A DNA stretch of 43,567 nucleotides from an uncultured Holophagaceae bacterium (GTDB lineage: Bacteria > Acidobacteriota > Holophagae > Holophagales > Holophagaceae), in NCBI GenBank assembly GCA_903890595.1, contig CAITBU010000053.1, positions 1 to 43,567 of the forward strand. The letters run 5' to 3'. The notes under the pieces were generated by a model. It searched no databases. It saw only the letters and a program-made list of their open reading frames with translations, and was not told the DNA's origin. Of this stretch, positions 1-16,460 are shown one piece after another; within the stretch, counting starts at the first letter, position 1; every line of letters begins with the position of its first letter. Made by a program: the position numbers and the translations under genes.

Positions 1-2
1 AG

Positions 3-1334
3 GCTGCCGCGATAGTTCACCTGGGAGAGATCCCGGGTGGCGGGCTGATCTCCGGAGATCGTGGGATCCACGCCGGGATTGGACGTGGAGGTGGCGTTGT
101 CGTAGCGCTGCTGGATATAGGTGTTGCGGGAGTAGCCAAATTCCAACTGCTGGGTGGGGCCAATCTGCCAGAAGAGCTTGTACTGGTTGAAGTCGTCGGT
201 CGCAGGCCCATCAATCTGGGTTGAGATGGTGGGGGTCGCCGAGTTCACCCCCCAGCTATAGGCGGCCAGAGGGTTTCCGGTGAGGGCCGTGGTGCCAACC
301 GTCGCGGGGATGTAGGTCCGATAGTTCGTCGGATTGCTGCCCAACAAGTTGGTGGGCGGTCCGTAGTTGTTGATGAGGGTTCGGCTGGGCGTGATCCGCT
401 TGCCATAGCTGAAGGTCAGGCGGTCCTTGATGATGGGCCCCAGGATGGAGATCTCCCAGGTTTTGCTCATGTCGTCCGAGTTGACCGTCGACGGGGTCAG
501 GGCGTAGGGACTGCCATTGGTCGAACCACTCATCGGGGAGTTGAAGCGGTTGCCCGCCGTATTGGGATAGGCGCTCCAGTCGGCACGCGATAACCGGGCC
601 CGAATCGAACCAGAGAAGTTGTTGCTGCCCGTCTTGGTCACCACATTGACGATACCGGCGGAGGTATGGCCGTACTTGGCGTTCACGGGACTCTGGATGA
701 TTGCGATGTCCTCGATGAGATCGTCCAGGATCCAGGCGCTGCTGCTGCCCTGACCCGTGGCGGGATCTCGGACCACGATGCCATTGACGGTGTACTGGGC
801 CGAGCCCGCGATGCCCCCGCGGATAACGGCGTAGTCGGTGGTACCGGTAACGCCCGGCGCGATGGTCAGGGCGCCCAGTGCATTGATGCTGCCCCCCATG
901 GGGAGGGTCTGCAGCTCGTCAAACGTCAGGGTGGTAGCTGTCTTTGTGTCGGTCTTATCCAGCGCCGCAGACGTGCTGGTCACTTCTACCACTGCCCCCG
1001 TGGTTTCCACAGGGCGAAGCCGAAGGTCCTGACGAAGGGTCTGGCCTGCGGCCAGGCTGAACAGGGCCTTGGAGCCAATGAAATTAGCCTTGGTGACATT
1101 CAGCTGATAGCTGCCGGGTAGTAGCAGCGGCAACCGGTATTCCCCCTTGTCGTCGGTCGTGACGATACGGCCGCCCAGAAGGGCCTCCCCGGCGAGCGAG
1201 ACGAGGGCCCCCGTTATGGGTTTACCACTGGGATCGGTCACCGATCCACGGACTGTGCCCACGCTCTCCTGGCCGGAGAGCACGGTTCCCACGATCATCG
1301 CGCCCAGTAGTGTGAGTCGATTCAAGTGCTTCAT
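3..1334 (-). CDS. TonB-dependent receptor, Oar-like, with N-terminal carboxypeptidase-regulatory-like domain (runs off left edge; C-terminus missing)
   Basis: Hand translation of an open minus frame absent from the ORF track: ATG at 1334 with AGGAG upstream; MKHLNRLTLLGAMIVGTVLSGQESVGTVRGSVTDPSG...GEYRLPLLLPGSYQL; plug motif AKYGHTSAGIVNVVTKTGSNNFSGS; WEISILGPIIKDRL. Confidence 0.9.
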   Translation of the reverse strand, partial: MKHLNRLTLLGAMIVGTVLSGQESVGTVRGSVTDPSGKPITGALVSLAGEALLGGRIVTTDDKGEYRLPLLLPGSYQLNVTKANFIGSKALFSLAAGQTLRQDLRLRPVETTGAVVEVTSTSAALDKTDTKTATTLTFDELQTLPMGGSINALGALTIAPGVTGTTDYAVIRGGIAGSAQYTVNGIVVRDPATGQGSSSAWILDDLIEDIAIIQSPVNAKYGHTSAGIVNVVTKTGSNNFSGSIRARLSRADWSAYPNTAGNRFNSPMSGSTNGSPYALTPSTVNSDDMSKTWEISILGPIIKDRLTFSYGKRITPSRTLINNYGPPTNLLGSNPTNYRTYIPATVGTTALTGNPLAAYSWGVNSATPTISTQIDGPATDDFNQYKLFWQIGPTQQLEFGYSRNTYIQQRYDNATSTSNPGVDPTISGDQPATRDLSQVNYRGS

Positions 1335-1374: not shown

Positions 1375-2145
1375 CTAGAAGTTGAAGCCGGCGCTGAATT
1401 CGAGAACCACCTTGGTGCGGTTTCTCAGCTCAGTGGTTGCCGCCTGCCCGGTGTAGCTGAAGGGCAGGTAGTTGACCTCCTTGAACCCAAGGAGGCTGAG
1501 GTTGGCTTCGAGGAAGAAGACCCTCGTGGCGTCGTAGCGAAGCCCAGCGAAGGCACCAGGAGTGATGCTGTTCTTAACGGGCTGGATGAAGAAATTCTCG
1601 GAGCCCAAAACCGTTGGCGTGGTGACATTCCGGTTGACCACGACATTGATGCCCCCCGACACATCCTGTTGGGAGCGCAACAGGCTCAGGTGGATGCCGG
1701 CGTGAGCAGAGAGGCCTTCCTGCCAGAAGGGAGCACGGTAGCCCAGGTTGAGCGTGAGGCTCTCGAGGTTGTTCCGCCGGATGTCCACCGAATCGTACCT
1801 GCCATCGGCCTTGGGGAGCCCATCGGGGCCGAGTACGTAGCGTGTTATCTGGCCCGTGACCACTTGCCCCAGGCTATCCAAGGCATAGCCTTGCCCAAAC
1901 CGGGTGCCGTCATAACTCGTGTTGCGGAACACGCGATAGTCGGCGCCCAGGAAGACCTTGCCCCGACGGAAGGGCATGGCCAGCTCGGCGCCCATGAGAA
2001 GGTCGTAGCGGGAGCGGCTCTCCCCGGGATCCCCAATGAATCGCCCTGGTCCAAGTTTAAAGCTCAAATCCAGGTCTTGCGCCGTGCTTGGGACGGCCAA
2101 TGCGAGCAGGAATAACGCAGAAACAAGTCTGTTCCGGGTGTGCAT
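1375..2145 (-). CDS. Outer-membrane beta-barrel protein
   Basis: Signal peptide (LFLLALAVPSTA|Q), alternating amphipathic strands, C-terminal ...SAGFNF typical BAM signal; GGAGG RBS; 40 bp upstream of the TBDR on the same strand. Confidence 0.75.
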   Translation of the reverse strand: MHTRNRLVSALFLLALAVPSTAQDLDLSFKLGPGRFIGDPGESRSRYDLLMGAELAMPFRRGKVFLGADYRVFRNTSYDGTRFGQGYALDSLGQVVTGQITRYVLGPDGLPKADGRYDSVDIRRNNLESLTLNLGYRAPFWQEGLSAHAGIHLSLLRSQQDVSGGINVVVNRNVTTPTVLGSENFFIQPVKNSITPGAFAGLRYDATRVFFLEANLSLLGFKEVNYLPFSYTGQAATTELRNRTKVVLEFSAGFNF

Positions 2146-2204: not shown

Positions 2205-2243
2205 AGTGTGTGTCTGGGTTCGGTTAAAGCCTGTTAAATTTTC
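2205..2243 (-). promoter_or_regulatory. Tandem direct-repeat box plus -10-like hexamer, copy 1 (upstream of beta-barrel/TBDR genes)
   Basis: Minus strand GAAAATTTAACAGGCTTTAACCG-N10-CACACT; TTAAC repeats 10 bp apart; same architecture at 9296-9334 and 11123-11160. Confidence 0.75.
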
Positions 2244-2289
2244 CTGAGCCCACACTTTCGTGGGCCGGCAGAGCAGAGGAGCGCCCACC

Positions 2290-2979
2290 ATGTACCGGAT
2301 CCTGATCGTGGATGACGATCAGAACCTGCGAGCCGTCCTGGAAAAGGCCCTTAAGAAGGCGGGCCTGATACCGGTCGTCGCGGAAAACGGTGCCATCGCC
2401 CTGGAACTGCACCGAGCCGAGCCTGCCGATCTTCTGCTCCTGGACCTCATGATGCCCACCATGGACGGGTTCCAGGTGCTGAAGGCCCTGCGTCCCCGGG
2501 ACGAAGTCCCCGTGCTCATGCTCACCGCCGAGGGACAAGAACAGAAGCGCGTGGAAGGCTTCCGACTGGGCGCCGACGACTACCTGGTGAAACCCTTCAG
2601 CATTGAGGAACTGCTGGGGAGGATCCGAGCCATCCTGAAGCGCTCTGCCCGCTACAAGGAGGTCAAGTCACTCTGCTCCGGCCCCTTCGAGTTGGATCGC
2701 ATGCACAAGTGCCTCCTGAGGGAGGGGGAGTCGGTGGGGCTGTCTCCGGTGGAATACCACATCCTAGAAGCACTTATGGCGCATGCCGGGCAGTCCCTCA
2801 CCCGCCTGGATGTGCTCAGGCTCGCCTGGACAACTGATTCCCGGCCGTCCCCGCGCACCGTGGATGTGCACATGGTCAGCCTGCGTCGCAAGCTCATCCT
2901 GGAAGGCGATCCCAGATGGATCCTGACCTCCGGAATCCACGGCTACTGCTGGACCAGCCCCATCCAGGAGAAGGCCTGA
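2290..2979 (+). CDS. OmpR/PhoB-family response regulator
   Basis: Receiver motifs ILIVDDD, LLLLDLMMP, LMLTA, YLVKPF; winged-helix RTVDVHMVSLRRKL; ATG 2290 preceded by GAGGAG. Confidence 0.93.
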   Translation: MYRILIVDDDQNLRAVLEKALKKAGLIPVVAENGAIALELHRAEPADLLLLDLMMPTMDGFQVLKALRPRDEVPVLMLTAEGQEQKRVEGFRLGADDYLVKPFSIEELLGRIRAILKRSARYKEVKSLCSGPFELDRMHKCLLREGESVGLSPVEYHILEALMAHAGQSLTRLDVLRLAWTTDSRPSPRTVDVHMVSLRRKLILEGDPRWILTSGIHGYCWTSPIQEKA

Positions 2980-2984
2980 CCCAG

Positions 2985-5900
2985 TCAGGGGGCCTCGCGG
3001 AAGTGAATGCGGAAAGTGGACCCTTCTCCCACGGTGCTCTCCAGTTCGAGCCGGGCACCCATGGCATCGAGTATGGTCTTCACGATGCTCAGGCCCAGCC
3101 CTGTGCTGCTCTCGCCCGCAGTCGGCTGTGCCGATAACCGGTTGAAGCGGCCGAAGACCTGAGCCTGGTCGTGGGCGGTGAAACCAGGCCCCTGGTCGCT
3201 CACCTCGATGATCCCTGGCTTGAGGACCACGCGGATGACCCGGGTGGGCGGCCCCGGCGCGGTGAACTTCACGGCGTTGGAGATGAGGTTATCCAGCACC
3301 TCCCTGAGGAAGAAGGGATCCACCCAGAGTGGCGGCAGGGTCTCTTCAGCAAGCACTTCCAGCAGGATGTCCTTGGTTGCGGCCCGGTGGAAGTAGGGCT
3401 CCACCAGCGAAGCCACCAGGGCTCGAGGGTCTACGGAGCCCATTTGAAGATCGAGCTCACCGGCCTCGACATGAGAGCTGTCCAGCAGGCGCCGGATCAT
3501 CTCCTCCATCTCGCGCGAGATCCGGAGGATTTCCCGGGAACCTTCGTCCAGCTCTCGAAGGTCGACCTCGCCCCCGAGGAGTTCCGCATGGAGCTGAATG
3601 GTGTGCAGCGGATTCCGGAGATCGTGGGCGACGATGCCCAGCAAGTGGCTCTTATCTTCGTTCATCTGCGTCAAGCGCAGGTTCACCCGCTCGAGGATCT
3701 CGGCCTTTCTGCGGATTTCCCCGGTGGCTTCATCCACCTTGATCTGCAGCTCGGCGTTCCGACGTTTAAGCCCCTGGAAGCGCAACCGCATCGCCCCCGC
3801 CAACAACCCCAGGGGCAGCATCCAGGCCAGGGCCCGCACCCAGAGACGCTCCCACCAGGCCGGCAGGACCTGAAGGGGCAGGACCGACTCAGGACCCCAG
3901 GGTCCACCCTTCCTGCGGCTTCGCACCTGGAACGTGTAGAACCCCGGAGCCAAGGCCGGATAGCGCGCACTGCGCCCCTGGGCGGTCTGCCAGTCCTGCT
4001 CGAGCCCGAGGAGTCGCACCTGATGCTCGACCTGGCTCTCGTTCAGGAAGGTCAGCGCAGAGATCTGAAACTCGAGCGTGTTCTGGTCCCTCGGAATATC
4101 CAGGCAAACAGTCAGATCGACAGGCCGAGGGTTTCCCGAGGCAAACAGTTCGCGGACAGTGCTCCTGAGGGGGGGGAGCCGGAGGGATCCTGTCTGGGGA
4201 TGAAAATGACTCAGACCCATGTTGCTGCCGATCCAGATGCCCCCATCGGCGTCGGCCAGAAAGGAACTGGCATCGCAGTCATCGCCCGCCAATCCGTCCT
4301 CAGTCGTGAGTGATTCCAGGCGACCCCCGTCCAACACCGAGACCCCCGTCCCGGTACCCAGCCAGAGTCGACCCGCAACATCCACACCCAGCATGTAGAC
4401 GTGATTTCCCACCAGCCCAGCGCTCTTGTCGAGGTGCTTGGTGATCTCGAAGCGTCCGTCTTTGATGTGGAGAATGGAAACGCCCAGTCCCTCGCGGTAG
4501 GCCACCACGATGCGATCATCCGGGAGCACGACGAGCTGGTAAAGGGCGTCATCCAAGAGCCCATCCTGGCGTGTGTAGCGGTGCCACTTCCCATGGTCCA
4601 GTACCGTCAGCCCATGCGTTCCCGCAACCAGGATCCGCCCTTGAGAGTCCTGGGCGATGCTGAACATGTCCTCGTCAGGAAGGCCCACAGGCAGCGCCAC
4701 GGACTCGAATCGCCACTTGGAGCCCGTCTTCCGCCCCCGGGAAAGACCACCGCCCTGCTGAGCGAGCCAGAGGTCCCCCTGTCTATCCAGGACCATTCCG
4801 AAGACCCCTTTGGCGTGGAAACCCGAGGCTGGTCCATGCGCTTCCAAGCGTCCGGTCCGTGGGGTGTAGCGAAGGGGATAGCCATTCCTCTGGCCGATCC
4901 AAACATCTCCATCAGGGGTGGAGGCGATGCACCGCGTGCTCCTCCCTTCCGTTCCGGGAAGCACTTCCCATCCCTGTGGCGTGGCCCGGCAGGCCCCACT
5001 CTGGGTGCCCACCCAAAGTGTCCCCTCTGGCGTGCGGTGGATGCCCAACATGAGGTTGCTGGGAAAGCCGTCTGCGGTGGAATAGATCTGGAACGCGCCG
5101 CCACCCAGCACCCGGGAGAGAGGTCGCGTCCCAATCCAAAGCGAACCCTCCTGGTCCACAAAGGCGCAGTAGGGTGAGTCAGCCTTGATGAACCTGGTGA
5201 TCCTGGGTGTCCCGTCTCCTCGCAACACGTGGAGGCCTTGGTTGGAATTCACGATCAGGGCGCCAGAAGGGTCCCGACAGAAGGCCGGTGTGCGCGCCGG
5301 AGGCAGGAGTCCAGCGTGGTCGGTAAAGCGGGAGGCACCGGCCACCAGGGAAAAGAGGGTCTGAGGCGTTCGCACCCAGAGCGCGGCCGTGCTATCCACC
5401 TCCATGACGGTGGTCTCGGAGAGCGTGAGGCCCTGCTCCTTCCCGAAGGATTGGTGGAGGCCTTCGGTGGACATGGCGTGGATGGCTTTTTGCCCGGTGA
5501 CCCAAATCCGCTGCCCGCCTTTGGCCGCCGCCAGGCCGGTCGCGGGCCCGCCGGGCCAACCGGGTGCAGGCAAAAAGTGGTGCCCATCAGTGCTCAGGAA
5601 AAGACCTTCCAGGGTGGCTACCCAGATGTGGCCACCCGCGCCTTGCGCGATGCCCCGGAAACCCGACTGTGGGAGGCCCTGGCCGGGACCGTAGGGCTCA
5701 AAGCGCCCCTGGCGGTAGCGCACCAGGCCCCGCAGGGTCGTTCCCACCCACAGACTGCCGTCTGCAGTCACCAGCAGTGCGGAGATGTTCGTGGCGGGCA
5801 GACCTTCCTCGAGTCCGAACTTGCGGAAGCGCACGCCATCGTAGCGGTAGAGGCCGCTCTGGGTACCCACCCAAAGGTAGCCGTCCCTGTCCTGGGCAAG

Positions 5901-6047
5901 GGCGCCGGTATTCAGGCTGGTTAGCCCATCCTTGGTCCCATAGACCCGGAGGGGAACCCGGCCTGAAGGAGCTGCGGGAACGCTGGGCTCTGCCTGGGCT
6001 GGGCCAAGCGCCAAGGCCACCGCCAGAAGCATTGTCCGTAGGTTCAT
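2985..6047 (-). CDS. Sensor histidine kinase with periplasmic beta-propeller (Reg_prop) repeats and Y_Y_Y domain
   Basis: Signal peptide, repeated DxxGxLWVGT and DGL motifs, Y_Y_Y-like RYPALAPGFYTFQVR, PAWWER-TM, H-box AHDLRNPL, N-box NLISNAVKF, DQGPG, STGLGL, GEGSTF. Confidence 0.92.
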   Translation of the reverse strand: MNLRTMLLAVALALGPAQAEPSVPAAPSGRVPLRVYGTKDGLTSLNTGALAQDRDGYLWVGTQSGLYRYDGVRFRKFGLEEGLPATNISALLVTADGSLWVGTTLRGLVRYRQGRFEPYGPGQGLPQSGFRGIAQGAGGHIWVATLEGLFLSTDGHHFLPAPGWPGGPATGLAAAKGGQRIWVTGQKAIHAMSTEGLHQSFGKEQGLTLSETTVMEVDSTAALWVRTPQTLFSLVAGASRFTDHAGLLPPARTPAFCRDPSGALIVNSNQGLHVLRGDGTPRITRFIKADSPYCAFVDQEGSLWIGTRPLSRVLGGGAFQIYSTADGFPSNLMLGIHRTPEGTLWVGTQSGACRATPQGWEVLPGTEGRSTRCIASTPDGDVWIGQRNGYPLRYTPRTGRLEAHGPASGFHAKGVFGMVLDRQGDLWLAQQGGGLSRGRKTGSKWRFESVALPVGLPDEDMFSIAQDSQGRILVAGTHGLTVLDHGKWHRYTRQDGLLDDALYQLVVLPDDRIVVAYREGLGVSILHIKDGRFEITKHLDKSAGLVGNHVYMLGVDVAGRLWLGTGTGVSVLDGGRLESLTTEDGLAGDDCDASSFLADADGGIWIGSNMGLSHFHPQTGSLRLPPLRSTVRELFASGNPRPVDLTVCLDIPRDQNTLEFQISALTFLNESQVEHQVRLLGLEQDWQTAQGRSARYPALAPGFYTFQVRSRRKGGPWGPESVLPLQVLPAWWERLWVRALAWMLPLGLLAGAMRLRFQGLKRRNAELQIKVDEATGEIRRKAEILERVNLRLTQMNEDKSHLLGIVAHDLRNPLHTIQLHAELLGGEVDLRELDEGSREILRISREMEEMIRRLLDSSHVEAGELDLQMGSVDPRALVASLVEPYFHRAATKDILLEVLAEETLPPLWVDPFFLREVLDNLISNAVKFTAPGPPTRVIRVVLKPGIIEVSDQGPGFTAHDQAQVFGRFNRLSAQPTAGESSTGLGLSIVKTILDAMGARLELESTVGEGSTFRIHFREAP

Positions 6048-6091
6048 ATACCGCTAGTTTGCACGCAATTGGCCGAAGAAGTTGCGTGCTA

Positions 6092-7402
6092 TTACAGGGC
6101 GGGCTCTTCCGAAGGCAAGGCTTCGGTTTCGGTGCCGAAGACACCCTCCCACTTGGCGATCACCACCGAGGCCAACCCATTGCCAATAACGTTGATCGTG
6201 GTCCGGGCCATGTCCATGATTTCGTCCACCGCGAGCAGCATGGCGATGCCAGCCTCGCCGGGCAGACCAAAGGATCCGCAGGTGCCTGCGATGATCACCA
6301 AGGTGGCCCGAGGCACGCCCGCCACACCCTTGGATGTGAGCATGAAGGTGAAGACCATGAGGAGCTGACTCCCCAGGCTCATGTGGATGCCCGCCGCCTG
6401 GGCGATGGTGAGGCTGGCGAGCACCAGATACAGGGTGCTGCCATCCAAGTTGAAGCTGTAGCCGGTGGGAATCACAAAGCTAGCTACGCGCCTGGGCACG
6501 CCAAAGCGCACGGTCTCCTCCAGGAGCTTGGGGAGGGCCGCCTCGCTGGAGGCTGTAGAGAAGGCCGTGATCGCCGGCTCCTTGATGGCCTTCAGGAAGG
6601 CGAAGACCTTCACGCGGCAGATCAGCATCACCGGCACAAAGACCAGGACGAAGAGACAGATCAGGGCGAAGTAGAGGCTGCCCACCAGCAGGGAGTACTG
6701 CTTGAGCAACTGGAACACCGCCGGCCAGCCTGCCATCGTCTGGCCGTTGACGGTGTGACCAGCGGCCATGGAGCTCACGTTGTAGGCCATGGCGCCAAAC
6801 ACGCCGAGAGGCGTAAGGGTCATCACCATGTCCGTGTACTTGAACATGGTCTGGGCCACGCCATCGAAGAAGGCAAGCACGGGCTTCCCGCGTTCGCCCA
6901 CATGGGTGAGGGCGATGCCGAAGAGGCTGGCGAAGATCACCACGGGCAGGATGTCGCCTTCCGCCGCGTGCTGGACCAGGTTCGAAGGAAAGAGATGCAG
7001 GGCGATCTCCCAGCCCGTCTTCGCCTTGACGGCCGCCACGGCGGTGTGGGCCGAGAGATCCAGCGGGAGGTGGGCGCCGGGCTTCAGCCAGTTCGCGATG
7101 GCGAGCCCAAGGAAAAGGGCAAAGGTTGTGACGACCTCGAAATAGAGCAGCGCCTTGCCGCCCATCCGTCCTACGGCCTTGATATCCCCCGTCTGGGCAA
7201 TGCCCACAACGATCGTGCTGAAGAGCAGGGGTACGATGAGGCCCTTGATGAGGGAGATGAAGGCCTTGGAGAGGAAGCGAAAGAGGTTGTAGGCCTGCGG
7301 GAACTCGTTTCGGGGCAGAGAGCCGCCGAGGACCACCCCCATGGCGAGACCAAAAAAAATCCAGAAGGTGCTCGAGCGATAGAAGGGTCTCTTGGGGGCC
7401 AT
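6092..7402 (-). CDS. Dicarboxylate/amino acid:cation symporter (GltP/DctA family)
   Basis: FSTASSEAALP and GYSFNLDGS motifs, SKGVAGVPRA, DMARTTINVIGN; start placed at ATG 7402 after GGAG. Confidence 0.93.
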   Translation of the reverse strand: MAPKRPFYRSSTFWIFFGLAMGVVLGGSLPRNEFPQAYNLFRFLSKAFISLIKGLIVPLLFSTIVVGIAQTGDIKAVGRMGGKALLYFEVVTTFALFLGLAIANWLKPGAHLPLDLSAHTAVAAVKAKTGWEIALHLFPSNLVQHAAEGDILPVVIFASLFGIALTHVGERGKPVLAFFDGVAQTMFKYTDMVMTLTPLGVFGAMAYNVSSMAAGHTVNGQTMAGWPAVFQLLKQYSLLVGSLYFALICLFVLVFVPVMLICRVKVFAFLKAIKEPAITAFSTASSEAALPKLLEETVRFGVPRRVASFVIPTGYSFNLDGSTLYLVLASLTIAQAAGIHMSLGSQLLMVFTFMLTSKGVAGVPRATLVIIAGTCGSFGLPGEAGIAMLLAVDEIMDMARTTINVIGNGLASVVIAKWEGVFGTETEALPSEEPAL

Positions 7403-7506
7403 GAGATACAACTCCAAAGCCCACGGTTGATCAACGCGCGAACCTGGGCGAACTCGCGCTCATCCTGCCTGGATCCAGCCGTGGCTCAGGTGCTGACTGA
7501 AATGGA

Positions 7507-7534
7507 GAACAGCCCCATTAGCCCGGGGCTGTTC
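7507..7534 (-). terminator. Stem-loop downstream of the Ig-repeat gene, possible weak intrinsic terminator
   Basis: GAACAGCCCC-N8-GGGGCTGTTC perfect 10-bp inverted repeat 20 bp after the stop; only a weak U-rich tail (TCCATTT) on the minus strand. Confidence 0.55.
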
Positions 7535-7554
7535 CCCTGCGGTCTGCTTGAAAG

Positions 7555-9105
7555 CTACTTGACCCAACCCTTGACCTGGAAGGGGAGCCCTTGAGGAGCC
7601 TTGGCTGTGCCGCCATCCACCCAGGCTGTCCAGGCGCTGCTCAGGATGCGAATCGCGTTACCCGTGGCGGCTGATCCGATAACCACCCGAGGCACCATGT
7701 AGACGCCGCTGGTATGGCCACCCCGGTATTCCACCCAATAGGTGCCCTGGGGCAGGGCAATGCCAAGTCCCTTGCAGCTGATGTTGTACAGGGAGCGCGT
7801 GCCGTCCGTGGCAATGGTGGTGTCGTTGGTCCGGTAGCCGATCCAGGTGACGGTCGTGGTCCGGTTGGTCGTTGTATCCCCCCAAATCACGGCACTTCCC
7901 GTGACATTGGGTGGTCCATTCCAGATCTGGATGTTGCAGGTGAAGGCCGGTGGCGTCGTGATGGAGCCGCCGGTGAGATAGAGGGAGAAGACGGCCTCAT
8001 CTACCTGCCAGCCAGTGGCATCCGTCACGGTAAAGTCATCTGCGACGGAGAACCCGTTGCCCAGCGCTGCCGTTCCCCCGTTCCCCTGAGTCGTCAAGCC
8101 CAGGGTTGTCTGCACCGCGGAAACACCCGCGCCGCCAACCCCAGCGCCGGGGTGGGAGATGAAGCTGTCCTCCACGAGCGCGATGGGATTCCCCACAGTC
8201 AGCTTCGCCTGACGGGTCGTGACATAGCCGGCGGTGTTGGTGACATCGACCTTGTAGAGCTTCCCGGTGTCACCGGTGACGGTGGCGGCCGTCGTGTAAC
8301 TGGCACTGGTGGCACCCGTGATGAGGGTGGTGCCGAGATACCACTTGTAGGTTGGGGCAGGCGTCCCGGTCGCTACGACCGTGAAGGTTGCTGTGGCACC
8401 GGGCAGAACAAAGGCATCGGAGGGCTGGGTGGTGATTGTCGGCTTAACTGCGTAGGTGATGTCCACCACGGACAGGACAGCCTCCAGGCTGGTCACGGTA
8501 CCGACGCTGTTCACGACATTTACGGTGTAGATGTTTCCGGTATCCGAAACCGCCGCGGCGGTATTCGTGTAAGAGGCGCTGGTGGCGCCCGTGATGTTCG
8601 TGCTGTTCTTCTTCCACTGGTAGGTGGGCGTGGGCTTGCCTGTGGCCACCACCGTGAAGGTGGCTGGCGAACCCGAGTTCACAGTGACGGACCGAGGCTG
8701 GGTGGTGATCTCAGGCAGGGAATTCACGGTGAGTGTGGCGGCAGTCGAAGTCACGGAAGCGACTGGATTGGAGACGGTGACGGTGTAGCTGCCCTCATCG
8801 GTGGACTGGGCGCTGGTTACCGCGTAGCTGCTGGCGTTCGCACCCGTAATGGCGATGCCGCTTTTGAACCACTGGTAGTTCAGCGGCGTCCCGGTGGCAG
8901 TCACCACCGTAAGGGTGGCGGCGGAACCCTTGGTGACGGTCACGCTCGCAGGCTGCGTGCCAATCGTCGGGGCGATCATGAAGGGCGCTGCGGGCTGGGC
9001 ATCCGTCGCGGTGAAATTGGTGCACCCGAGCGTGATGGCCGCCATGCCGAGAGCGGCGAGCAGGGCAGTCAGCCTGATGGGCGAGGTTGCGCGGGGGGTA
9101 CGCAT
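7555..9105 (-). CDS. Lipoprotein with three immunoglobulin-like repeats and an unassigned C-terminal domain
   Basis: Lipobox ITLGC; repeats starting PTIGTQP, PEITTQP, PTITTQP each with Y(Q/K)W and YxVxVxN; ATG 9105 after GGAGG. Confidence 0.85.
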   Translation of the reverse strand: MRTPRATSPIRLTALLAALGMAAITLGCTNFTATDAQPAAPFMIAPTIGTQPASVTVTKGSAATLTVVTATGTPLNYQWFKSGIAITGANASSYAVTSAQSTDEGSYTVTVSNPVASVTSTAATLTVNSLPEITTQPRSVTVNSGSPATFTVVATGKPTPTYQWKKNSTNITGATSASYTNTAAAVSDTGNIYTVNVVNSVGTVTSLEAVLSVVDITYAVKPTITTQPSDAFVLPGATATFTVVATGTPAPTYKWYLGTTLITGATSASYTTAATVTGDTGKLYKVDVTNTAGYVTTRQAKLTVGNPIALVEDSFISHPGAGVGGAGVSAVQTTLGLTTQGNGGTAALGNGFSVADDFTVTDATGWQVDEAVFSLYLTGGSITTPPAFTCNIQIWNGPPNVTGSAVIWGDTTTNRTTTVTWIGYRTNDTTIATDGTRSLYNISCKGLGIALPQGTYWVEYRGGHTSGVYMVPRVVIGSAATGNAIRILSSAWTAWVDGGTAKAPQGLPFQVKGWVK

Positions 9106-9295
9106 GGGGTGACCTCCAGGAATGATCGGCTGCGGGTGATCTCGCATTCAAGGCGCACCCTAACCAGATCGCGGGACAGTGCATGAAAGGAGCGAAGAGC
9201 ATCAGCCTGCAAAGTTCTCTGGCTGCCAGCAACCCTCTGCCTCGCAACAAGCAGGCTTCGGGATGGAATTGATTCAAAGAGACTTTCAAGGCCTG

Positions 9296-9334
9296 AGTTT
9301 GGGATAGGAGACGGTTAAATCCTGTTAAGTTTTC
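9296..9334 (-). promoter_or_regulatory. Tandem direct-repeat box plus -10-like hexamer, copy 2 (upstream of Ig-repeat lipoprotein)
   Basis: Minus strand GAAAACTTAACAGGATTTAACCG-N10-CAAACT. Confidence 0.72.
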
Positions 9335-9374
9335 AGCTCACTCGTATTCCATGGGAGCCGCCTTGAGCGTCTGC

Positions 9375-10238
9375 ATGCCACCCTCCCCCCACCTCCTCCG
9401 CTGGCGGATTCTGCCCCTCCTGGTGTTCCTGCTCGCTTCTGAAACAGCCAGCGCTTGCACCCTGTACGCAGCTCACGGCGCCCGTGTGGCTGGAGGCGGC
9501 ACCCTCATCGTGAAGGTACGTGACTGGACTCCAGGCGACCACCAAGTGCTCGAGCGGGTCACGCCTCCCAGGGGTTACTCCTACTACGCCCTGGTCACGG
9601 AGGGCGAGGATCCCGGCATCAAAGCAGGAGTCAACGAGCGGGGCCTGGTGGTGGAGAGCGCCACCGCCAGCAGCATCCCCAAGCCGGATCGCCAGGAGCC
9701 CGAGTCCACGATGGGTCTGCTGCGCAAATTGCTCGCGGAGTGCGCCACTGTGGACGATGTGCTGGCGAGAAAAGCCCTCTTCCGCGGGCCGCGCTTCCTG
9801 CTGGTGGCCGACGCGACCCAGGTCGCCTGCATTGAGATTGGACCCCTGGGCCAGGTGCGGGTGGACATTACTCGGGACGGCGTCGCCGCCCACACCAACC
9901 ACTACCTGCCCGGTGCGCTGAGCGGAGCCAACCAGAAGACCCCCGGAGCCAGTAGCCTCTCCCGCTTCAACCGAATCAAGGAGCTGCTGGAGGCGAAGAC
10001 CCCCCACACCATGGACGGCTTCCTGGGCTTCTCCCGGGACCGTCATGCGGGACCCGACCTGAGCATCTTCCGGACGGGTCTCAAGCCCACGGGCACCCGC
10101 ACCATGTCGGTGTGGGCCGTGCGACTTAAGCCGGGCGGCGGCGCGGAAATCGTCGTGCGTCTGCTCAACGCGGGGCAACCCGAGGTGCTCGTCCGGCGCG
10201 ACTTTGCTGAGATCTTCCGGAAGGACCCCGTCCGCTAA
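9375..10238 (+). CDS. Secreted Ntn-hydrolase, peptidase C45 / acyl-CoA:6-APA acyltransferase-like
   Basis: Signal peptide ending ASA directly followed by CT; KVRD, GVNERGL, HTNHY, SLSRF motifs; start could also be 9351. Confidence 0.8.
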   Translation: MPPSPHLLRWRILPLLVFLLASETASACTLYAAHGARVAGGGTLIVKVRDWTPGDHQVLERVTPPRGYSYYALVTEGEDPGIKAGVNERGLVVESATASSIPKPDRQEPESTMGLLRKLLAECATVDDVLARKALFRGPRFLLVADATQVACIEIGPLGQVRVDITRDGVAAHTNHYLPGALSGANQKTPGASSLSRFNRIKELLEAKTPHTMDGFLGFSRDRHAGPDLSIFRTGLKPTGTRTMSVWAVRLKPGGGAEIVVRLLNAGQPEVLVRRDFAEIFRKDPVR

Positions 10239-11086
10239 GGCAGTGCCCCCGTGGCCTGCAGGTGGGACTTGATGGCCGCTGCCATCCCGGCGGCAGTCGC
10301 TGCAGTGGCGGAGCTGGGCGAGCGGAAGCTTAGTCCGAACTCCAGCTGCACCGCGTTCAGGCGATTTGGCGCCGCTTCGGGAAACCCATAGGCCTGTACG
10401 ATGTAGCCGCCCGTAAAGGAGGCATGTTCGCCCGTGGCGCTGGTACCGGGATTGACCGGCAGACTCCGCGCCAGCATCTCTGTTACCAGTCCGTTGGGTG
10501 CCGTTCGATAGAGCGTTGGTAGAGCGGCAGTATTGCCGTTCTGGGTGCCCCGATAGATGAGATTCGAGGTGGTTCCCTGCCCGTGGACATCGATGAGGAT
10601 GGCGCCTGTCGAAGACTGTGCCTTGGCGGCATTCACGGCGGTCTGGATGGCCGTGTGATAGAAGGCATAGATGGGAGCTACCGTTGCTGTTTCATAGGCC
10701 TCCGCAGCACTCCGATTGAAGTCCACATACTTCCGGCTCACCTGGGACGCCACCAGATGTGCCTTCTTGCCGGTCAGTGCGAAGAGCTGACTCTGGATCG
10801 CAAGGCCGAGCTCGTACGTGTTCGTGTCGAGCACGGTGGTGGCATCCGTTGCGACCCGCTCTGGCACACCGGGTAACACGGCTGATCCACCATGTGGAAC
10901 TGAGAGCACCACCGGCAGGGTCCCGCTTTCCACCAGGACGTAACTGGCTGGGCTCAGTGGATCGATCTTGACTGCGTTCCCAGCCCCACTTCCAGCGCCA
11001 CCACAGGCGGCACCCGCCAGGACGGCTGTAAGCAGGGAGAACAGTCGAAGGACGCGACGGTGGTTTCGAATAAACGTTTGGATCAT
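10235..11086 (-). CDS. N-formylglutamate amidohydrolase-like lipoprotein (copy 1)
   Basis: SVPHGG, DTNT, RKYVDFNR, YH, IDVHG, FTGGYIV, AVQLEFG; lipobox-like LAGAAC. Confidence 0.82.
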   Translation of the reverse strand: MIQTFIRNHRRVLRLFSLLTAVLAGAACGGAGSGAGNAVKIDPLSPASYVLVESGTLPVVLSVPHGGSAVLPGVPERVATDATTVLDTNTYELGLAIQSQLFALTGKKAHLVASQVSRKYVDFNRSAAEAYETATVAPIYAFYHTAIQTAVNAAKAQSSTGAILIDVHGQGTTSNLIYRGTQNGNTAALPTLYRTAPNGLVTEMLARSLPVNPGTSATGEHASFTGGYIVQAYGFPEAAPNRLNAVQLEFGLSFRSPSSATAATAAGMAAAIKSHLQATGALP

Positions 11087-11122
11087 TTTGGGTGTCCTCG
11101 GGCAGGTGGCCCGCAAGCCTTC

Positions 11123-11160
11123 GGAAATTAACAGGGATTAACCGGCCTGTGGCACACACT
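11123..11160 (+). promoter_or_regulatory. Tandem direct-repeat box plus -10-like hexamer, copy 3 (upstream of racemase/amidohydrolase genes)
   Basis: Plus strand GGAAATTAACAGGGATTAACCG-N10-CACACT. Confidence 0.75.
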
Positions 11161-11220: not shown

Positions 11221-12258
11221 ATGACCAACTGGCTTAGAAAACACCTCCACTTCAGCGCAATCTGGCTGGTCGTCGGGCTCCTCCTGCTCGTCCTTCCGCT
11301 GGGCGCTCAAGAGGACATTTCGGCACTTCGGAAGCGCCTCGAAGCCAAAGCGTCGGTCACCATCCTCGTCACGGATTCCGGTCTGGGTGGCCTCTCTGTG
11401 GTGGCCGGAATCGAAGAGCGGGCCCGGGCCAGCCGTACCTTCAGAAAGGTTCGCCTGGTGTTCGTCAACGCCATGCCAACAGCCAAGAAGGGCTACAACA
11501 AGATGTCCCCGGAGGAAAAGGTCAGCGTGTTCAACGACGCGCTGAAGGCCATGGCTACCCGGTTTAAGCCGGATGCCATCCTGATCGCCTGCAACACTCT
11601 GAGCGTCGTCTATCCCGACACGCCCTTTGCACGCACCACCAAGGTCCCGATCGTTGGCATTGTCGGCCTTGGGATCGACATGATTGCCGAGTCCCTCGTC
11701 CGCACGCCCAAGAGCGTCGCCATGATCTATGGGACGGAGACCACGATTGAGTCCAATGCCTACCGCGATGGGCTGGTGAAGAAGGGCATTCCACTAGAGC
11801 GCATCGTGTCGGTGCCTTGCTCTGGACTGGCCATCAAGATTCAGAACGATGCAGCCAGCGAGGCCGTGAAAGTGGCCATCAACGGCTTCGTTCGCGCCGG
11901 CATGACCACACGGCCCACCCCTGACGCCAAGGTTGTGGTCGGGCTCTGCTGCACGCACTATGGCTATTCCAGCACCCTCTTTTCGACGAGCACGCTGGAG
12001 GCGGGGGCCGCTGCGGTGGAGTTGGTCGACCCCAACATTCGGATGAGTGCACTCCTCTTCAGGCCGAAGCCCACCCGCAGGTACCCACGGGTGAACACCG
12101 CGGTGGAGGTCTTCTCCCGGGGCGAGCTCCTTCCGGAAGCCCGAAAGAACATCGGTGATCTGGTCCGGCCTGCCTCCCCGAAAACAGCCGAGGCACTCCT
12201 TGGCTACACCCATGATCCGGAGCTCTGGGCTTATCCGAGCCCCACCGTCCCCAAGTAA
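11221..12258 (+). CDS. Aspartate/glutamate racemase family protein with N-terminal signal peptide
   Basis: MurI-type motifs DSGLGGLSV, ACNTL, CCTHYG (both catalytic Cys present); leader MTNWLRKHLHFSAIWLVVGLLLLVLPLGA|QED. Confidence 0.87.
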   Translation: MTNWLRKHLHFSAIWLVVGLLLLVLPLGAQEDISALRKRLEAKASVTILVTDSGLGGLSVVAGIEERARASRTFRKVRLVFVNAMPTAKKGYNKMSPEEKVSVFNDALKAMATRFKPDAILIACNTLSVVYPDTPFARTTKVPIVGIVGLGIDMIAESLVRTPKSVAMIYGTETTIESNAYRDGLVKKGIPLERIVSVPCSGLAIKIQNDAASEAVKVAINGFVRAGMTTRPTPDAKVVVGLCCTHYGYSSTLFSTSTLEAGAAAVELVDPNIRMSALLFRPKPTRRYPRVNTAVEVFSRGELLPEARKNIGDLVRPASPKTAEALLGYTHDPELWAYPSPTVPK

Positions 12259-12308: not shown

Positions 12309-13172
12309 ATGCGCTTACAGCCCGCCCTTTTCGCCACCCGAAGCACGCTGGTGGCCATCCCGCTCCTGGCCTGGACGATCGCCTGCGGACCGGTATCCAC
12401 CCTTCCAACAGGGGTCGTTCAACCGGCCGTGGTGGCCCAGATGGAGTCCCTGGTACACCTCCAAAAGGGTGAATTGCCGATTCTCATCTCGGCTCCCCAT
12501 GGTGGTCGCAAGGACATCCCCGGCTCAAGGCACCGCACGGGCCAGGGTATGGCCACGGGTGGCGCGGGCTTTAGCACTGCCTGGGATGCTGGGACGGAAG
12601 AACTGGCACTGGAACTGGCGGCTGAAGTCCTGCGCCTAACCGGCAAGAAGCCCTACCTCGTGGTGGGCTCGTTCAAGCGCAATTTCCTGGACTGCAACCG
12701 GCCCCCTGCCATCGCCTATTCCGATCCGGCGGCCCGAGCGGTCTACGAGGTCTACCACGGGGCCCTCCGGGAAGACTGCAAGGAAATCGTGACCCGGTTC
12801 GGCAGCGGACTGGTGGTTGATCTGCACCGCCAGGGTACCTCCGCGAACACGGTCTATCGCGGCACGAAAAACGGCAAGAGCGTGACGGCCATGCGGGCCA
12901 AATTCGGCGACGGTATTCACGAAGGACCCGACAGCGTGTTTGGCAGACTCAAGGCCCAGGGGTGGAACGTCCACCCGGACCCCGGCGGCACGGAGCAGTC
13001 CGGATTCTCAGGAGGCTTCATCACCCAGACCTACGGCAGTGAAAGATCACCCACGGATGCCATTCAGTTCGAATTCGGCGCCGACTACTGCAAGTCTGCG
13101 GAGCAGCGTAAGGGCACGGTAAAGGCGCTTGCCTTGGTGCTGGTGGAATTGGCCAAAGGCTACCACCTCTAG
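12309..13172 (+). CDS. N-formylglutamate amidohydrolase-like lipoprotein (copy 2)
   Basis: SAPHGG, WDAGT, RNFLDCNR, YH, VDLH, FSGGFIT, AIQFEFG; lipobox-like WTIAC; AGGAG RBS. Confidence 0.82.
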   Translation: MRLQPALFATRSTLVAIPLLAWTIACGPVSTLPTGVVQPAVVAQMESLVHLQKGELPILISAPHGGRKDIPGSRHRTGQGMATGGAGFSTAWDAGTEELALELAAEVLRLTGKKPYLVVGSFKRNFLDCNRPPAIAYSDPAARAVYEVYHGALREDCKEIVTRFGSGLVVDLHRQGTSANTVYRGTKNGKSVTAMRAKFGDGIHEGPDSVFGRLKAQGWNVHPDPGGTEQSGFSGGFITQTYGSERSPTDAIQFEFGADYCKSAEQRKGTVKALALVLVELAKGYHL

Positions 13173-13241: not shown

Positions 13242-15233
13242 CTACCTGAGGGTCAAGCGCACGTAGCGGCCCTCGGGTGTGTTCTCGAACTGGACCTTGT
13301 TGCCCCAGGTCGCGGGCTCCGGGCTGTGCTTCAGCAGGGCAGCCTTGGCCTGATCAAACTCATCGGCAGACACGGGGCGCGGCTGGTACTTGGTCAGAAT
13401 GTTGTCCGAGACGATGGGGTACAGCTCCAGACTCAGGGCGCCAGAAGGTGTCGCCACCAGCACTGCGGGCAGACCGAATGGGTCCACGCCACTCTTGACA
13501 AAGCGGCCAGCCGAGTTGAAGGCAAAGTTGCCAATGGAATAGGCAATCCAGCGGTTCTTGTACTGCTCAATCTCACCCATCATGTGCGCGCCGTGGCCAA
13601 GCACAAGATCCACCCCCGCATCGATGGCGCCATGGGCTGTGGTCGTCTGCTCCGCATTGCGCCATTTGTAGTTCTGTCCCCAGTGGGGAAAGTAGACGAC
13701 GAAGGCATTCGTGTCTGCCTTGCGGATGGTTTCCACCTGACGCTTCAGGATGCCCAGGTCGATGGCCGCCACGCCTGGACGACTGGGCTTGGCATAGAAC
13801 TGGTACTTCGTGTCGTACTCGGCTTCGCGGTACTCGAAGGCGGTGATGACATAGAGGCTAAAGCTCCGACTCCCAACCTGGAAGCTGCGGTGCCAAGGCG
13901 CCCTAGCACCTTCCTCGTTCAGGCCGGCACCGAAGGTCGTAATGCCCTTGGCGGAGAGCGTGGACAAGGTCTGGAGGAGACCTTCCTGGCCGAGGTCAGC
14001 CGTGTGGTTATTCGCCAGTCCGACGACCGTGATGTTGTGGCGCAGCAGGGCGGCGGGAGTCTGGATTGGATCAGCGTAGTGAACATAGTCCTTCTGGCCC
14101 GCGAAGGGTGAAGTCCGGGTCTGGGCCACGGGCGTCTCGAGGTTCGCCACCACGACCTGGGCGGATTTCAGCAGGGGAGCCAGCTTCTCCAGGGAATAAT
14201 CGTAGCCCTTAGCCTTCAGGATGTGTCCCTTGCCGGCCTTTTCGTATTCATCCTGGTAGCTCTCGCCCCAACCAAGATCACCTGCGAACAGCACCCGCAG
14301 GGGGGTGGTGGCCGCCTGGAGACTCGAGGTCGGATTCCCCGCGCCGGCGAAGAGCACCCTTTCGGCATGCACCGACATCTTCTTGTCGTTATGGGGGACA
14401 CCAGGGGCCGTGACCAGCTGCCAGCGAAACGGAACCTTGAGGCGCTCTGCCTGCGTCCGCGCCGCTTCGAAGTAGGCCTTGCCACGGGCGAGGCGGAAGG
14501 CCCCCTGGGCCATGGCGCCGGGGGTTCGCCGGAGCTGCTTGTGGTTGGGATCAATGTCCTGATCGCCCAATAGGATGGTTATGGGTAGGCCAAGGACCTG
14601 TTTGAGGCGGGCATCGTCGCAGACGGTGCCACCCGTGCCATAGGGGAAGGCGATCGCTGGATCAGGGAACATGTACCAGCCCGCATTGGCGCTTACGATA
14701 CGCAGGGCCTTGGCGGTTGGCTTGAAGAAGGCCAGGCGATGTACGAACTGACTTCCAGCGGAGTGGCCGTAGAGGAGATAGCCAGGTGTCGTCAGGTTCA
14801 ACTGCGCGGCGGCTGCATCGAAGATCGGATCGAGATAGGAAAAGGTCCACTGGGCCTCTGGTATTGGCACAGGGAGCTTGTCCTCCTCATTGAAATTTCC
14901 GAAGACATTGCCGAAGTTGTACTGAGAGTCCGAGGGGAAATCGGTCTTTGAGAACTCCGGGCAAAGCAGCACAGCCCCTCGGCGTTCAGCAATCTCGCTC
15001 CAGTCGTCGCGGTAGCGGTCGGCGTCTCGGGTTACACCGTGCATGACCATGAGCACCGGCGCATCCGGTTTGCAGTTGGCGGGCACGCTGTAGAACACCC
15101 GGAGGGGACGCCCCTGGTTGATGGCAGCAGCTCTGAATGTGATGCTGCCTTTCCCAGGCTGAAGGGAAGTGGACGGGCTCTGGGCCCATACAGGCAGGAC
15201 GAGAAGGAGAGCGGTGAGACAGGCCAGCTTCAT
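13242..15233 (-). CDS. Secreted fusion: alpha/beta hydrolase plus CapA (PGA_cap, metallophosphoesterase-like) domain
   Basis: Signal peptide VLPVWA|Q; hydrolase MHG, GHSAG, GDQD, GVPH; CapA motifs FAGD, NLETPV, LANNHTAD, PHWG, VLGHGAH, YSIGNF; ATGA overlap with upstream peptidase. Confidence 0.87.
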   Translation of the reverse strand: MKLACLTALLLVLPVWAQSPSTSLQPGKGSITFRAAAINQGRPLRVFYSVPANCKPDAPVLMVMHGVTRDADRYRDDWSEIAERRGAVLLCPEFSKTDFPSDSQYNFGNVFGNFNEEDKLPVPIPEAQWTFSYLDPIFDAAAAQLNLTTPGYLLYGHSAGSQFVHRLAFFKPTAKALRIVSANAGWYMFPDPAIAFPYGTGGTVCDDARLKQVLGLPITILLGDQDIDPNHKQLRRTPGAMAQGAFRLARGKAYFEAARTQAERLKVPFRWQLVTAPGVPHNDKKMSVHAERVLFAGAGNPTSSLQAATTPLRVLFAGDLGWGESYQDEYEKAGKGHILKAKGYDYSLEKLAPLLKSAQVVVANLETPVAQTRTSPFAGQKDYVHYADPIQTPAALLRHNITVVGLANNHTADLGQEGLLQTLSTLSAKGITTFGAGLNEEGARAPWHRSFQVGSRSFSLYVITAFEYREAEYDTKYQFYAKPSRPGVAAIDLGILKRQVETIRKADTNAFVVYFPHWGQNYKWRNAEQTTTAHGAIDAGVDLVLGHGAHMMGEIEQYKNRWIAYSIGNFAFNSAGRFVKSGVDPFGLPAVLVATPSGALSLELYPIVSDNILTKYQPRPVSADEFDQAKAALLKHSPEPATWGNKVQFENTPEGRYVRLTLR

Positions 15234-16406: not shown

Positions 16407-16424
16407 TTGGAACAAAGGTTCCAA
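16407..16424. promoter_or_regulatory. Perfect palindrome, candidate RpiR/MurR operator
   Basis: TTGGAAC-AAAG-GTTCCAA between the divergent peptidase and regulator genes; related TGGAA-N3-TTCCA at 16378-16390. Confidence 0.65.
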
Positions 16425-16431
16425 TGCGACG

Positions 16432-16460
16432 ATAATACCCAGGTGGTAGCCCGCTGTCAA
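16432..16460 (-). promoter_or_regulatory. Sigma70-type promoter for the M20 peptidase / CapA-fusion operon
   Basis: Minus strand TTGACA (16460-16455) - 17 nt - TATTAT (16437-16432). Confidence 0.7.

What the first reader, a model, noticed from the sequence alone, without database searches (positions are those of the whole stretch)
2205..11160. Three near-identical activator-dependent promoters define a hidden regulon
Seen: TTAACAGG-N2-TTAACCG occurs in three separate intergenic regions (2221-2237 minus, 9312-9328 minus, 11128-11144 plus). Each is preceded by GAAA and followed exactly 10 nt later by CACACT, CAAACT or CACACT. The box lies 75 and 76 nt from the start codons of the beta-barrel and racemase genes. 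Established: OmpR/PhoB regulators bind head-to-tail repeats about one helical turn apart (CpxR GTAAA-N5-GTAAA; the pho box sits about 10 nt upstream of -10). Inference: the adjacent regulator (2290-2979) activates the barrel-TBDR operon, the Ig lipoprotein (possibly reading into symporter and kinase) and the racemase-amidohydrolase pair. This is independent evidence that they act as one system.
Basis: partly seen in the sequence, partly recalled or inferred. Interest (0 to 1): 0.82.

Follow-up and report, generated by a model that had tools for sequence, protein, structure and literature searches.

The report
Local regulator switching on polyglutamate island
Three matching DNA boxes are real and conserved; they are likely the on-switches through which the neighbouring two-component regulator activates part of a rare gene island predicted to make and recycle the polymer poly-gamma-glutamate, an ordinary kind of switch on an undescribed cargo.

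Summary
The three boxes are the only TTAAC-N5-TTAAC repeats in the 3.19 Mb assembly and are kept in two related genomes. Three more distant orthologues of the adjacent OmpR/PhoB regulator (63-68% identity) carry a variant 10-bp-period repeat in the same divergent promoter. All their sites are followed exactly 10 nt later by TAnnnT, so CAnACT is very likely a weak -10 of a PhoB-like class II promoter. The main rival binder, a family-wide sister regulator whose presence tracks a similar box, is deleted from this genome, and orthologues of its presumed targets lack the box here.

The regulon covers only part of the island.

New: the box-1 operon continues off the window into gamma-glutamyltransferase and pgsB/pgsC/pgsW-like genes. 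With the exported glutamate racemase, two zinc amidohydrolases and a CapA domain, the island looks like a poly-gamma-glutamate locus. Binding, start sites and substrate are untested.

The parts
2221..2237 (-). Box 1: direct repeat TTAACAGG-N2-TTAACCG (10-bp period), pointing at the barrel-TBDR operon
   Evidence: identical in G084 and G125; variant at the same place in G052, G127, G130
2205..2210 (-). Predicted weak -10 hexamer CACACT, 10 nt after box 1
   Evidence: same position holds TAGCTT, TAATGT, TATTCT in the orthologous promoters
9312..9328 (-). Box 2, pointing at the Ig-domain gene (206 nt from its ATG)
   Evidence: kept in G084, not found together with the Ig gene in G125
9296..9301 (-). 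Predicted weak -10 hexamer CAAACT
11128..11144 (+). Box 3, pointing at racemase and amidohydrolase 2
   Evidence: G125 keeps TTAAC-N5-TTAACCG with a changed middle
11155..11160 (+). Predicted weak -10 hexamer CACACT
   Evidence: kept in G084 and G125
2290..2979 (+). OmpR/PhoB-family response regulator (receiver + Trans_reg_C; recognition helix RTVDVH); likely binder
2985..6047 (-). Histidine kinase with Reg_prop/Y_Y_Y sensor, HisKA, HATPase_c; likely cognate kinase
   Evidence: adjacent to the regulator in G084, G125, G127, G130
1375..2145 (-). Exported predicted outer-membrane barrel protein, first gene after box 1 (no Pfam match)
   Evidence: 25% identical to the gene at the same place in G130
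1..1334 (-). TonB-dependent receptor, cut by the contig end; operon continues on contig C483 (barrel 2, BPL_N-like, GGT, DUF6305, DctM, AstE-like, PgsB-, PgsC-, PgsW-like)
7555..9105 (-). Ig-domain predicted lipoprotein, target of box 2
7504..7537 (-). 14-bp hairpin just after the Ig stop; possible terminator (weak U tail)
   Evidence: z -4.86; pairing kept with G-U in G084, read by eye; not called by the terminator scan
6092..7402 (-). Dicarboxylate/amino acid:cation symporter (DctA/GltP-like, below both cut-offs); probably has its own upstream region
11221..12258 (+). Glutamate-racemase-like protein with hydrophobic N-terminus; DSGLGG, ACNT and CCTH motifs present
12309..13172 (+). FGase-family zinc amidohydrolase 2, 50 nt after the racemase; fold also like PghP-type polyglutamate hydrolases
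10235..11086 (-). FGase-family amidohydrolase 1, divergent from box 3; no box points at it
9351..10238 (+). C45 Ntn-hydrolase, divergent from box 2; kept without box 2 in G125
13242..15233 (-). Esterase-like + PGA_cap (CapA/PgsA) fusion; island member without a box

Best explanation
The three boxes are likely binding sites for the adjacent OmpR/PhoB regulator, which would activate three weak sigma-70-type promoters of an island predicted to make and recycle poly-gamma-glutamate. Shown: sequence, uniqueness, conservation, fixed 10-nt spacing to a -10-like hexamer, and gene content. Inferred: the beta-propeller kinase senses a periplasmic ligand, probably gamma-glutamyl peptides, and phosphorylates the regulator. 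A head-to-tail dimer then covers about -39 to -23, replaces the missing -35 and recruits RNA polymerase (class II, as PhoB does). Likely outputs are (1) barrel-TBDR-barrel-BPL_N-like, possibly on to GGT-DUF6305-DctM-AstE-like-pgsBCW (about 13 kb), (2) the Ig lipoprotein alone and (3) racemase plus amidohydrolase 2. The exported hydrolases and GGT would cut imported or self-made polymer, the exported racemase would interconvert D- and L-glutamate, and the symporter would take up the monomer.
For: The boxes are the only such repeats genome-wide. A matrix built from 6 sites of four other genomes ranks the three boxes first, second and third in this genome (37.1, 32.4, 30.1; next 24.5); 2 of those 6 sites are from the close relative G125. 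All 5 regulator orthologues found among 132 family genomes (63-97% identity) have a KTAAY-N5-KTAAY repeat in the promoter divergent from the regulator. With no -10 constraint, 13 orthologue-neighbourhood loci held 6 repeats of 10-bp period, and 6 of 6 have YAnnnT exactly 10 nt on, 4 of them TAnnnT; background is 1.0-1.4% per position. In G052, G125, G127 and G130 the full geometry occurs 6 times genome-wide, always in these loci. The E. coli pho box lies 10 bp upstream of the -10 (PMC1906773, passage). The island regulators are sister to a family-wide core regulator (96/97 support). A TTAACA-N4-TTAAC box upstream of an M16 peptidase gene is present in 30 of 37 genomes with that regulator and 3 of 13 without. 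G000 lacks the core pair, since nadA abuts DAHP synthase on one contig, and its M16 upstream region lacks the box. Cargo: GGT above cut-off, TIGR04332 above cut-off, PgsB 218.8 of 222.7 and PgsC 92.8 of 96.45 bits, same gene order in G084 and G125. TIGR04332 occurs in 4 of 133 family genomes, three being the TTAAC-box genomes.
Against: There is no binding, expression or start-site data. The loose KTAAY/YAnnnT pattern was written after looking at the orthologous promoters, so searches are partly circular. Genome-wide, the exact family motif did not track the core regulator (37 of 86 against 13 of 44, p 0.18), and genomes in these counts are kin. The more distant orthologues have boxes in front of other cargo (M4 peptidase in G127; barrel-TBDR-barrel-C45 and DsbD in G130) and no TIGR04332 gene, so the ligand cannot be read from the regulator clade. 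No box points at C45, amidohydrolase 1, CapA-M20 or RpiR-MFS-tricorn; CapA-M20 has an 11/12 sigma-70 consensus upstream. A 118-nt gap precedes GGT, so box 1 may not reach the pgs genes. PgsB and PgsC fall just under their cut-offs. The best fold match of amidohydrolase 2 is FGase (E 4e-9); PghP ranks below it (E 2.5e-5), close to peptidoglycan amidases. G144 has the TIGR04332 gene without this regulator or box.
Confidence: 0.72

Rival explanations
1. The regulatory reading is right, but the substrate is not poly-gamma-glutamate. The regulon scavenges other gamma-glutamyl or N-acyl-glutamate compounds (glutathione, gamma-D-Glu peptidoglycan fragments), and the pgs genes are a neighbouring module with their own promoter.
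For: 118-nt gap before GGT, not conserved in G125; FGase is the top fold match and amidases score close to PghP; regulator orthologues sit with unrelated cargo; racemase-CapA pairs occur in 5 other family genomes, next to an ATP-grasp gene in G137, without the pgs genes.
Against: The TBDR-to-pgs order is conserved in three genomes of two genera on one strand, other gaps being at most 48 nt; CapA domain, racemase, GGT and pgsBCW-like genes all lie in one island.
Confidence: 0.25
2. The boxes are bound by a different, distal regulator (another OmpR-family protein such as 29885-30604 or the C115 paralogue), or by the family-wide core regulator.
For: A near-identical TTAACA-N4-TTAACC motif is widespread in the family upstream of secreted-protein genes; other OmpR-family genes exist in G000.
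Against: The core regulator and kinase are absent from an intact junction in G000. The remaining paralogues are 31-39% identical with different recognition helices. A global regulator would be expected to have sites outside the island, and none was found.
Confidence: 0.08
3. The boxes act mainly on the divergent genes (autoregulation of the regulator, C45, amidohydrolase 1) or as repressor sites, and CAnACT is incidental.
For: All three lie 22-52 nt from a divergent start codon; CAnACT lacks the T at -12; CpxR can act in either orientation (PMC5063474, passage).
Against: The hexamer is conserved at a fixed distance on one side only and is TAnnnT in distant orthologues; G125 keeps C45 without box 2. 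A secondary effect on the divergent promoters remains possible.
Confidence: 0.1
4. The three sites are leftovers of recent promoter duplication with no present common control.
For: Spacer letters are shared between sites 1 and 3.
Against: Flanks outside about -6 to +33 do not align between the sites. Between G000 and G125 the repeat and hexamer are kept while the flanks diverge, which indicates selection.
Confidence: 0.04

Closest known systems
E. coli PhoB / pho box (class II activation)
   Same: OmpR/PhoB fold (best NCBIfam hit PhoB, 173 of 296 bits); tandem direct repeat ending 10 bp before a TAnnnT-type -10 (PMC1906773) and overlapping -35 (PMC3348028).
   Different: Period 10, not 11 (PMC4415409); different half-site; kinase has a Reg_prop/Y_Y_Y sensor rather than being PhoR; no phosphate genes among the targets; three local sites only.
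Salmonella PhoP architecture-I promoters
   Same: Single direct-repeat box one turn upstream of -10, orientation dependent (PMC3335776).
   Different: Box lies 12 nt from the -10 and has a (T/G)GTTTA half-site.
CpxR (GTAAA-N4-8-GTAAA), SaeR (GTTAA-N6-GTTAA), cyanobacterial SphR (CTTAACCT repeats)
   Same: AT-rich direct repeats with a TTAA or GTAAA core; the CpxR site shown in PMC5063474 has a 6-nt spacer and its range includes 5.
   Different: SaeR, SphR and ArcA have an 11-bp period (PMC5083920, PMC1906773, PMC4173790); the regulator scores far below all these equivalog cut-offs that were listed.
Bacillus pgsBCAE / DegS-DegU and Gram-negative capB-capC-pgsF operons
   Same: PgsB-, PgsC-, TIGR04332-like genes, a CapA domain, GGT and a glutamate racemase; two-component control of the synthesis genes is known in Bacillus (PMC5751247).
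   Different: Gram-negative host; TonB-dependent receptor, exported racemase, FGase-like hydrolases and an OmpR-type regulator with propeller kinase (DegU being NarL-type is recalled).
Bacteroidota polysaccharide utilisation loci with hybrid two-component sensors (recalled; not read here)
   Same: TBDR plus exported hydrolases plus a Reg_prop/Y_Y_Y sensor (best PDB hits 4a2l, 3v9f, 3va6).
   Different: Separate OmpR regulator instead of a fused AraC output; no SusD or glycoside hydrolase found; peptide-bond chemistry; carries synthesis genes as well.

Membership tests
OmpR/PhoB-activated class II promoter | Regulator with receiver and Trans_reg_C domains and intact phospho-acceptor motifs | tested here: met
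OmpR/PhoB-activated class II promoter | Tandem direct repeat of about one helical turn covering the -35 position, at a fixed distance from a -10 element | tested here: met
   10-bp period, 10 nt to YAnnnT in 3 of 3 own sites and 6 of 6 sites in four other genomes; no TTGACA-type promoter called at the sites
OmpR/PhoB-activated class II promoter | Phosphorylated regulator binds the box and activates transcription from the predicted start | not testable with these tools
   needs EMSA, reporter and start-site mapping
Pho regulon (PhoB/PhoR) | PhoB equivalog score and 11-bp pho box | tested here: not met
   173 against 296 bits; TTAAC repeats at 11-bp period: 0 in the genome
Holophagaceae core regulator regulon (nadA-kinase-regulator-DAHP locus; defined here, unnamed) | Core regulator present in the genome | tested here: not met
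   island regulators form a separate sister clade
Poly-gamma-glutamate synthesis system | PgsB and PgsC equivalogs | tested here: inconclusive
   218.8 of 222.7 and 92.8 of 96.45 bits, adjacent and overlapping by 4 nt
Poly-gamma-glutamate synthesis system | TIGR04332 system protein and a CapA/PgsA-domain protein | tested here: met
   267 against 100 bits; PGA_cap 193 against 27 bits, though encoded at the other end of the island
Poly-gamma-glutamate synthesis system | Polymer production | not testable with these tools
   no isolate or expression data
PghP-type gamma-PGA hydrolase | Family-level sequence match and zinc-peptidase fold | tested here: inconclusive
   Pfam gives FGase, not a PGA-hydrolase family; fold matches 3a9l, 21dc, 5onj rank below FGase structures
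Glutamate racemase (MurI) | Two catalytic cysteines and DSGxGG motif; equivalog score | tested here: inconclusive
   motifs present; score 57 of 147 bits; extra hydrophobic N-terminus in 90 of 120 homologues

The most novel reading that the evidence does not exclude
This is a PUL-like locus for poly-gamma-glutamate in Acidobacteriota. A propeller kinase senses gamma-glutamyl oligomers and, through these boxes, switches on a TonB-dependent importer, a new FGase-like family of gamma-PGA hydrolases, GGT and a periplasmic glutamate racemase, together with the synthase, so the cell both makes and eats the polymer under one switch.
Probability: 0.33. Interest if true: 0.72.

Novelty: new member of a known kind. 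Interest (0 to 1): 0.47.

Why it matters
The switch is of a well-known kind, but it gives a binding motif and promoter geometry for an unstudied regulator clade of Holophagaceae, including a family-wide sister regulator (86 of 133 genomes) with a candidate regulon of secreted peptidases. It also ties together genes of no tested function (exported glutamate racemase, FGase-like lipoproteins, a TBDR) and points to a substrate. If gamma-PGA is right, it would name a Gram-negative uptake and degradation route for a protease-resistant natural polymer, a new hydrolase family and a role for a large family of signal-bearing racemases (1199 clusters), each testable with purified proteins.

Tried and rejected

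Rfam: 0 matches in the window and C483, so no known riboswitch in the 206-nt Ig leader.

Sigma-54 reading of TGGCAC at site 3: rejected by eye, since there is no GC at the right distance from GG (consensus recalled). ECF -35/-10 reading of GAAA...CACACT: rejected by eye, the spacing is about 30 nt.

Pho regulon: rejected (membership test). ArcA as a 10-bp analogue: rejected, PMC4173790 gives 11 bp.

Genome-wide cross-tabulation of the exact family motif against the core regulator: not significant. The first M16 upstream run picked wrong starts and was redone. Of 54 regions, 1 had no start and 3 with wrong starts were dropped, leaving 50; three genomes whose gene was cut at its start were not fetched.

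Metagenome motif scan: 4 loci, all copies of this island (89-100% protein identity), so no independent support. Phylum search with amidohydrolase 2: no match in 400 other genomes. The regulator scan of genome contigs found only 2 close relatives. Atlas search with the Ig protein gave only leads under 0.8.

Earlier scan findings: none.

Literature: no paper held for Geothrix/Holophaga with pgsB or PGA; one irrelevant hit for poly-gamma-glutamate + TonB-dependent + utilization; searches listed nothing on this system. The library lacks most subscription journals. No complex prediction was run.
Full report
Observation. The pattern TTAACAGG-N2-TTAACCG matches three times in the window, at the stated coordinates; shuffles give 0.02 on average. 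In the whole assembly (3.19 Mb, 67% GC) there are the same three matches at up to 2 mismatches, and only these three for TTAAC-N5-TTAAC; spacings of 4, 6 and 7 give 1, 0 and 1. Each is followed after exactly 10 nt by CACACT, CAAACT or CACACT. The distances to the downstream ATGs are 75, 206 and 76 nt. All three lie between divergent genes. The region has about 62% GC against 67% for the genome. The two closest regulator relatives are labelled uncultured Holophagaceae; counts below use G handles only.

Footprinting. Among 132 other family genomes, five carry an orthologue of regulator 2290-2979 (97, 83, 68, 64, 63%), and these form one clade (100/99). G084 keeps three boxes and G125 two. In G125 the repeat and hexamer are kept while the flanks diverge, and site 3 has changed its middle letters. 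G052, G127 and G130 carry GTAAC-N5-GTAAC or TTAAT-N5-TTAAT in the promoter divergent from the regulator, preceded by GAA(A) and followed 10 nt later by TAGCTT, TAATGT or TATTCT. G130 has a second such site (TACCTT) before a DsbD gene. I first saw these by eye, so I repeated the scan without any -10 term. Thirteen loci held six 10-bp-period repeats plus one at another spacing; all six have YAnnnT at 10 nt, four TAnnnT, against a background of 1.0-1.4%. Genome-wide, the geometry occurs six times in G052, G125, G127 and G130, all in these loci. A matrix from those six sites ranks the three window boxes top in G000. This matches the pho-box geometry, 10 bp upstream of TAN3T (PMC1906773, passages) and overlapping -35 (PMC3348028, passages). 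The period is 10, not the 11 of PhoB (PMC4415409, passages), SaeR (PMC5083920, passages) or ArcA (PMC4173790, passages). PhoP architecture I is similar at 12 nt (PMC3335776, passages). CpxR is given as GTAAA-N4-8-GTAAA (PMC5063474, passages).

Which protein binds. A relaxed search found TTAAC-N5-TTAACC in 53 of 133 family genomes, often upstream of genes for secreted proteins. This raised a rival: a core regulator, 48-50% identical, found in 86 of 133 genomes. It is sister to the island clade (96/97) and has the same RTVDVH helix. Genome-wide, the exact motif does not track it (37 of 86 against 13 of 44; p 0.18). At one orthologous promoter (M16 peptidase) it does: 30 of 37 against 3 of 13 (p 3e-4, kin not independent; 54 regions examined, 4 dropped). 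Of the three exceptions, G073's contig ends inside the core kinase, G003 has the regulator in two frames, and G068's nadA was not found. In G000 nadA runs directly into DAHP synthase on one contig, so the core pair is absent. Of five G000 orthologues (over 50% identity) of box-bearing genes whose upstream region was assembled, four had no match at up to 3 mismatches and one had only 3-mismatch matches. The adjacent regulator is thus the only member found in this genome of the clade that tracks such boxes. The kinase lies next to it in G084, G125, G127 and G130; none was found in the 21 kb fetched for G052, where the contig ends 1 kb upstream.

Extent of the regulon. A 14-bp hairpin follows the Ig stop (z -4.86). 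It has a weak U tail and was not called by the scan. G125 lacks Ig, box 2 and most of the symporter but keeps the symporter's upstream region directly before the kinase, so the kinase does not need box 2. No box points at C45, amidohydrolase 1, CapA-M20 or RpiR-MFS-tricorn, although all are conserved in G084 and G125.

What the cargo is. A metagenome contig 99% identical to the window start (L111) spans the TBDR and overlaps contig C483 of the same genome. C483 carries, on one strand, barrel 2, a BPL_N-like protein, gamma-glutamyltransferase (515 against 358 bits), DUF6305, a DctM-type transporter, an AstE-like deacylase, and PgsB-like (218.8 of 222.7), PgsC-like (92.8 of 96.45) and TIGR04332 (267 against 100) genes. 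Gaps are at most 48 nt except 118 nt before GGT. The order is the same in G084 and G125. TIGR04332 occurs in 4 of 133 family genomes: these three and G144. In the window, the racemase keeps both catalytic cysteines and its best solved relatives are glutamate racemases; 90 of 120 homologues have a hydrophobic N-terminus by a crude test. The model of amidohydrolase 2 (pLDDT 90.7) matches FGase first, then phage PghP, peptidoglycan amidases and other PGA hydrolases. One homologue fuses FGase to BPL_N, linking operons 1 and 3. GGT and zinc-dependent PghP degrade gamma-PGA in Bacillus (PMC4497714, passages). Bacillus pgs genes are under DegS-DegU (PMC5751247, passages). A capB-capC-pgsF order is described for Gram-negative producers (10.1101/2025.11.11.687785, passages; its supplementary Fig. 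S12 was not seen and may bear on gene naming). Against a fixed function for the regulator clade: G127 and G130 have boxes in front of other cargo.

Mechanism and odds. I put binding by the adjacent regulator with class II activation at about 0.85, gamma-PGA or closely related gamma-glutamyl chemistry as the island's business at about 0.7, and box 1 reaching the pgs genes at about 0.55. The steps from ligand to kinase to regulator are inferred from family knowledge; none was shown.

Novelty. Local two-component regulons with such promoters are common, so the element is a new member of a known kind. My searches listed no description of this regulator clade, its motif or a gamma-PGA locus with a TonB receptor in Holophagaceae; the library is incomplete.

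Noticed in passing
L277 (G000:C483:1-8871), beyond the window's left end: Continuation of the box-1 operon: barrel 2, BPL_N-like, GGT, DUF6305, DctM, a small ORF, AstE-like, PgsB-, PgsC- and TIGR04332-like genes; GC rises from 0.62 to 0.69-0.70 over the pgs genes.
   Followed up: yes
L149-L177, L197-L250; core locus e.g. L189:6119-12026: Family-wide TTAACA-N4-TTAAC box upstream of M16, M4, subtilase- and lipase-like genes, tracking an unnamed core two-component pair between nadA and DAHP synthase. At the M16 promoter the box sits about 20 nt before a TAnGCT hexamer, one turn further out than in the island.
   Followed up: partly
G000:C356:10522-10549; L253 (G055): Clean loss of the core kinase-regulator pair, with nadA abutting DAHP synthase, in at least two genomes of the genus; in G003 the regulator is in two frames (L273).
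   Followed up: partly
window 11221-12258; L104-L109: Large family of glutamate-racemase-like proteins with N-terminal hydrophobic extensions (1199 clusters). In 5 other family genomes one follows a CapA-domain gene, and in G137 an ATP-grasp gene follows. No canonical MurI was found in G000 by tblastn with this query.
   Followed up: partly
window 13242-15233: Exported esterase-like domain (GHSAG) fused to a PGA_cap domain with a weak match to the MslH peptide epimerase model.
   Followed up: no
L295 (G000:C418:2034-14667): A second barrel-TBDR-barrel cassette followed by several redoxin proteins and DsbD, next to the end of the TIGR04332 gene, without the box. A PadR-like ORF (judged by eye) lies upstream.
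   Followed up: partly
window 16407-16460: Near-consensus sigma-70 promoter (11 of 12) toward M20-CapA, back to back with an RpiR regulator; a probable second control layer of the island.
   Followed up: no
L191:3296-3417 (G125): Remnant of the symporter's first codons left in front of the kinase after loss of Ig and symporter.
   Followed up: yes
G000:C170:5441-5583 and C346:3356-3380: AT-rich TTAACAGGA-containing repeats on two other contigs, with different spacing from the box; not examined.
   Followed up: no
window 27439-29871: The ORF as called has a Ras/Arf-like N-terminal part ahead of PAS, HATPase and receiver domains.
   Followed up: no
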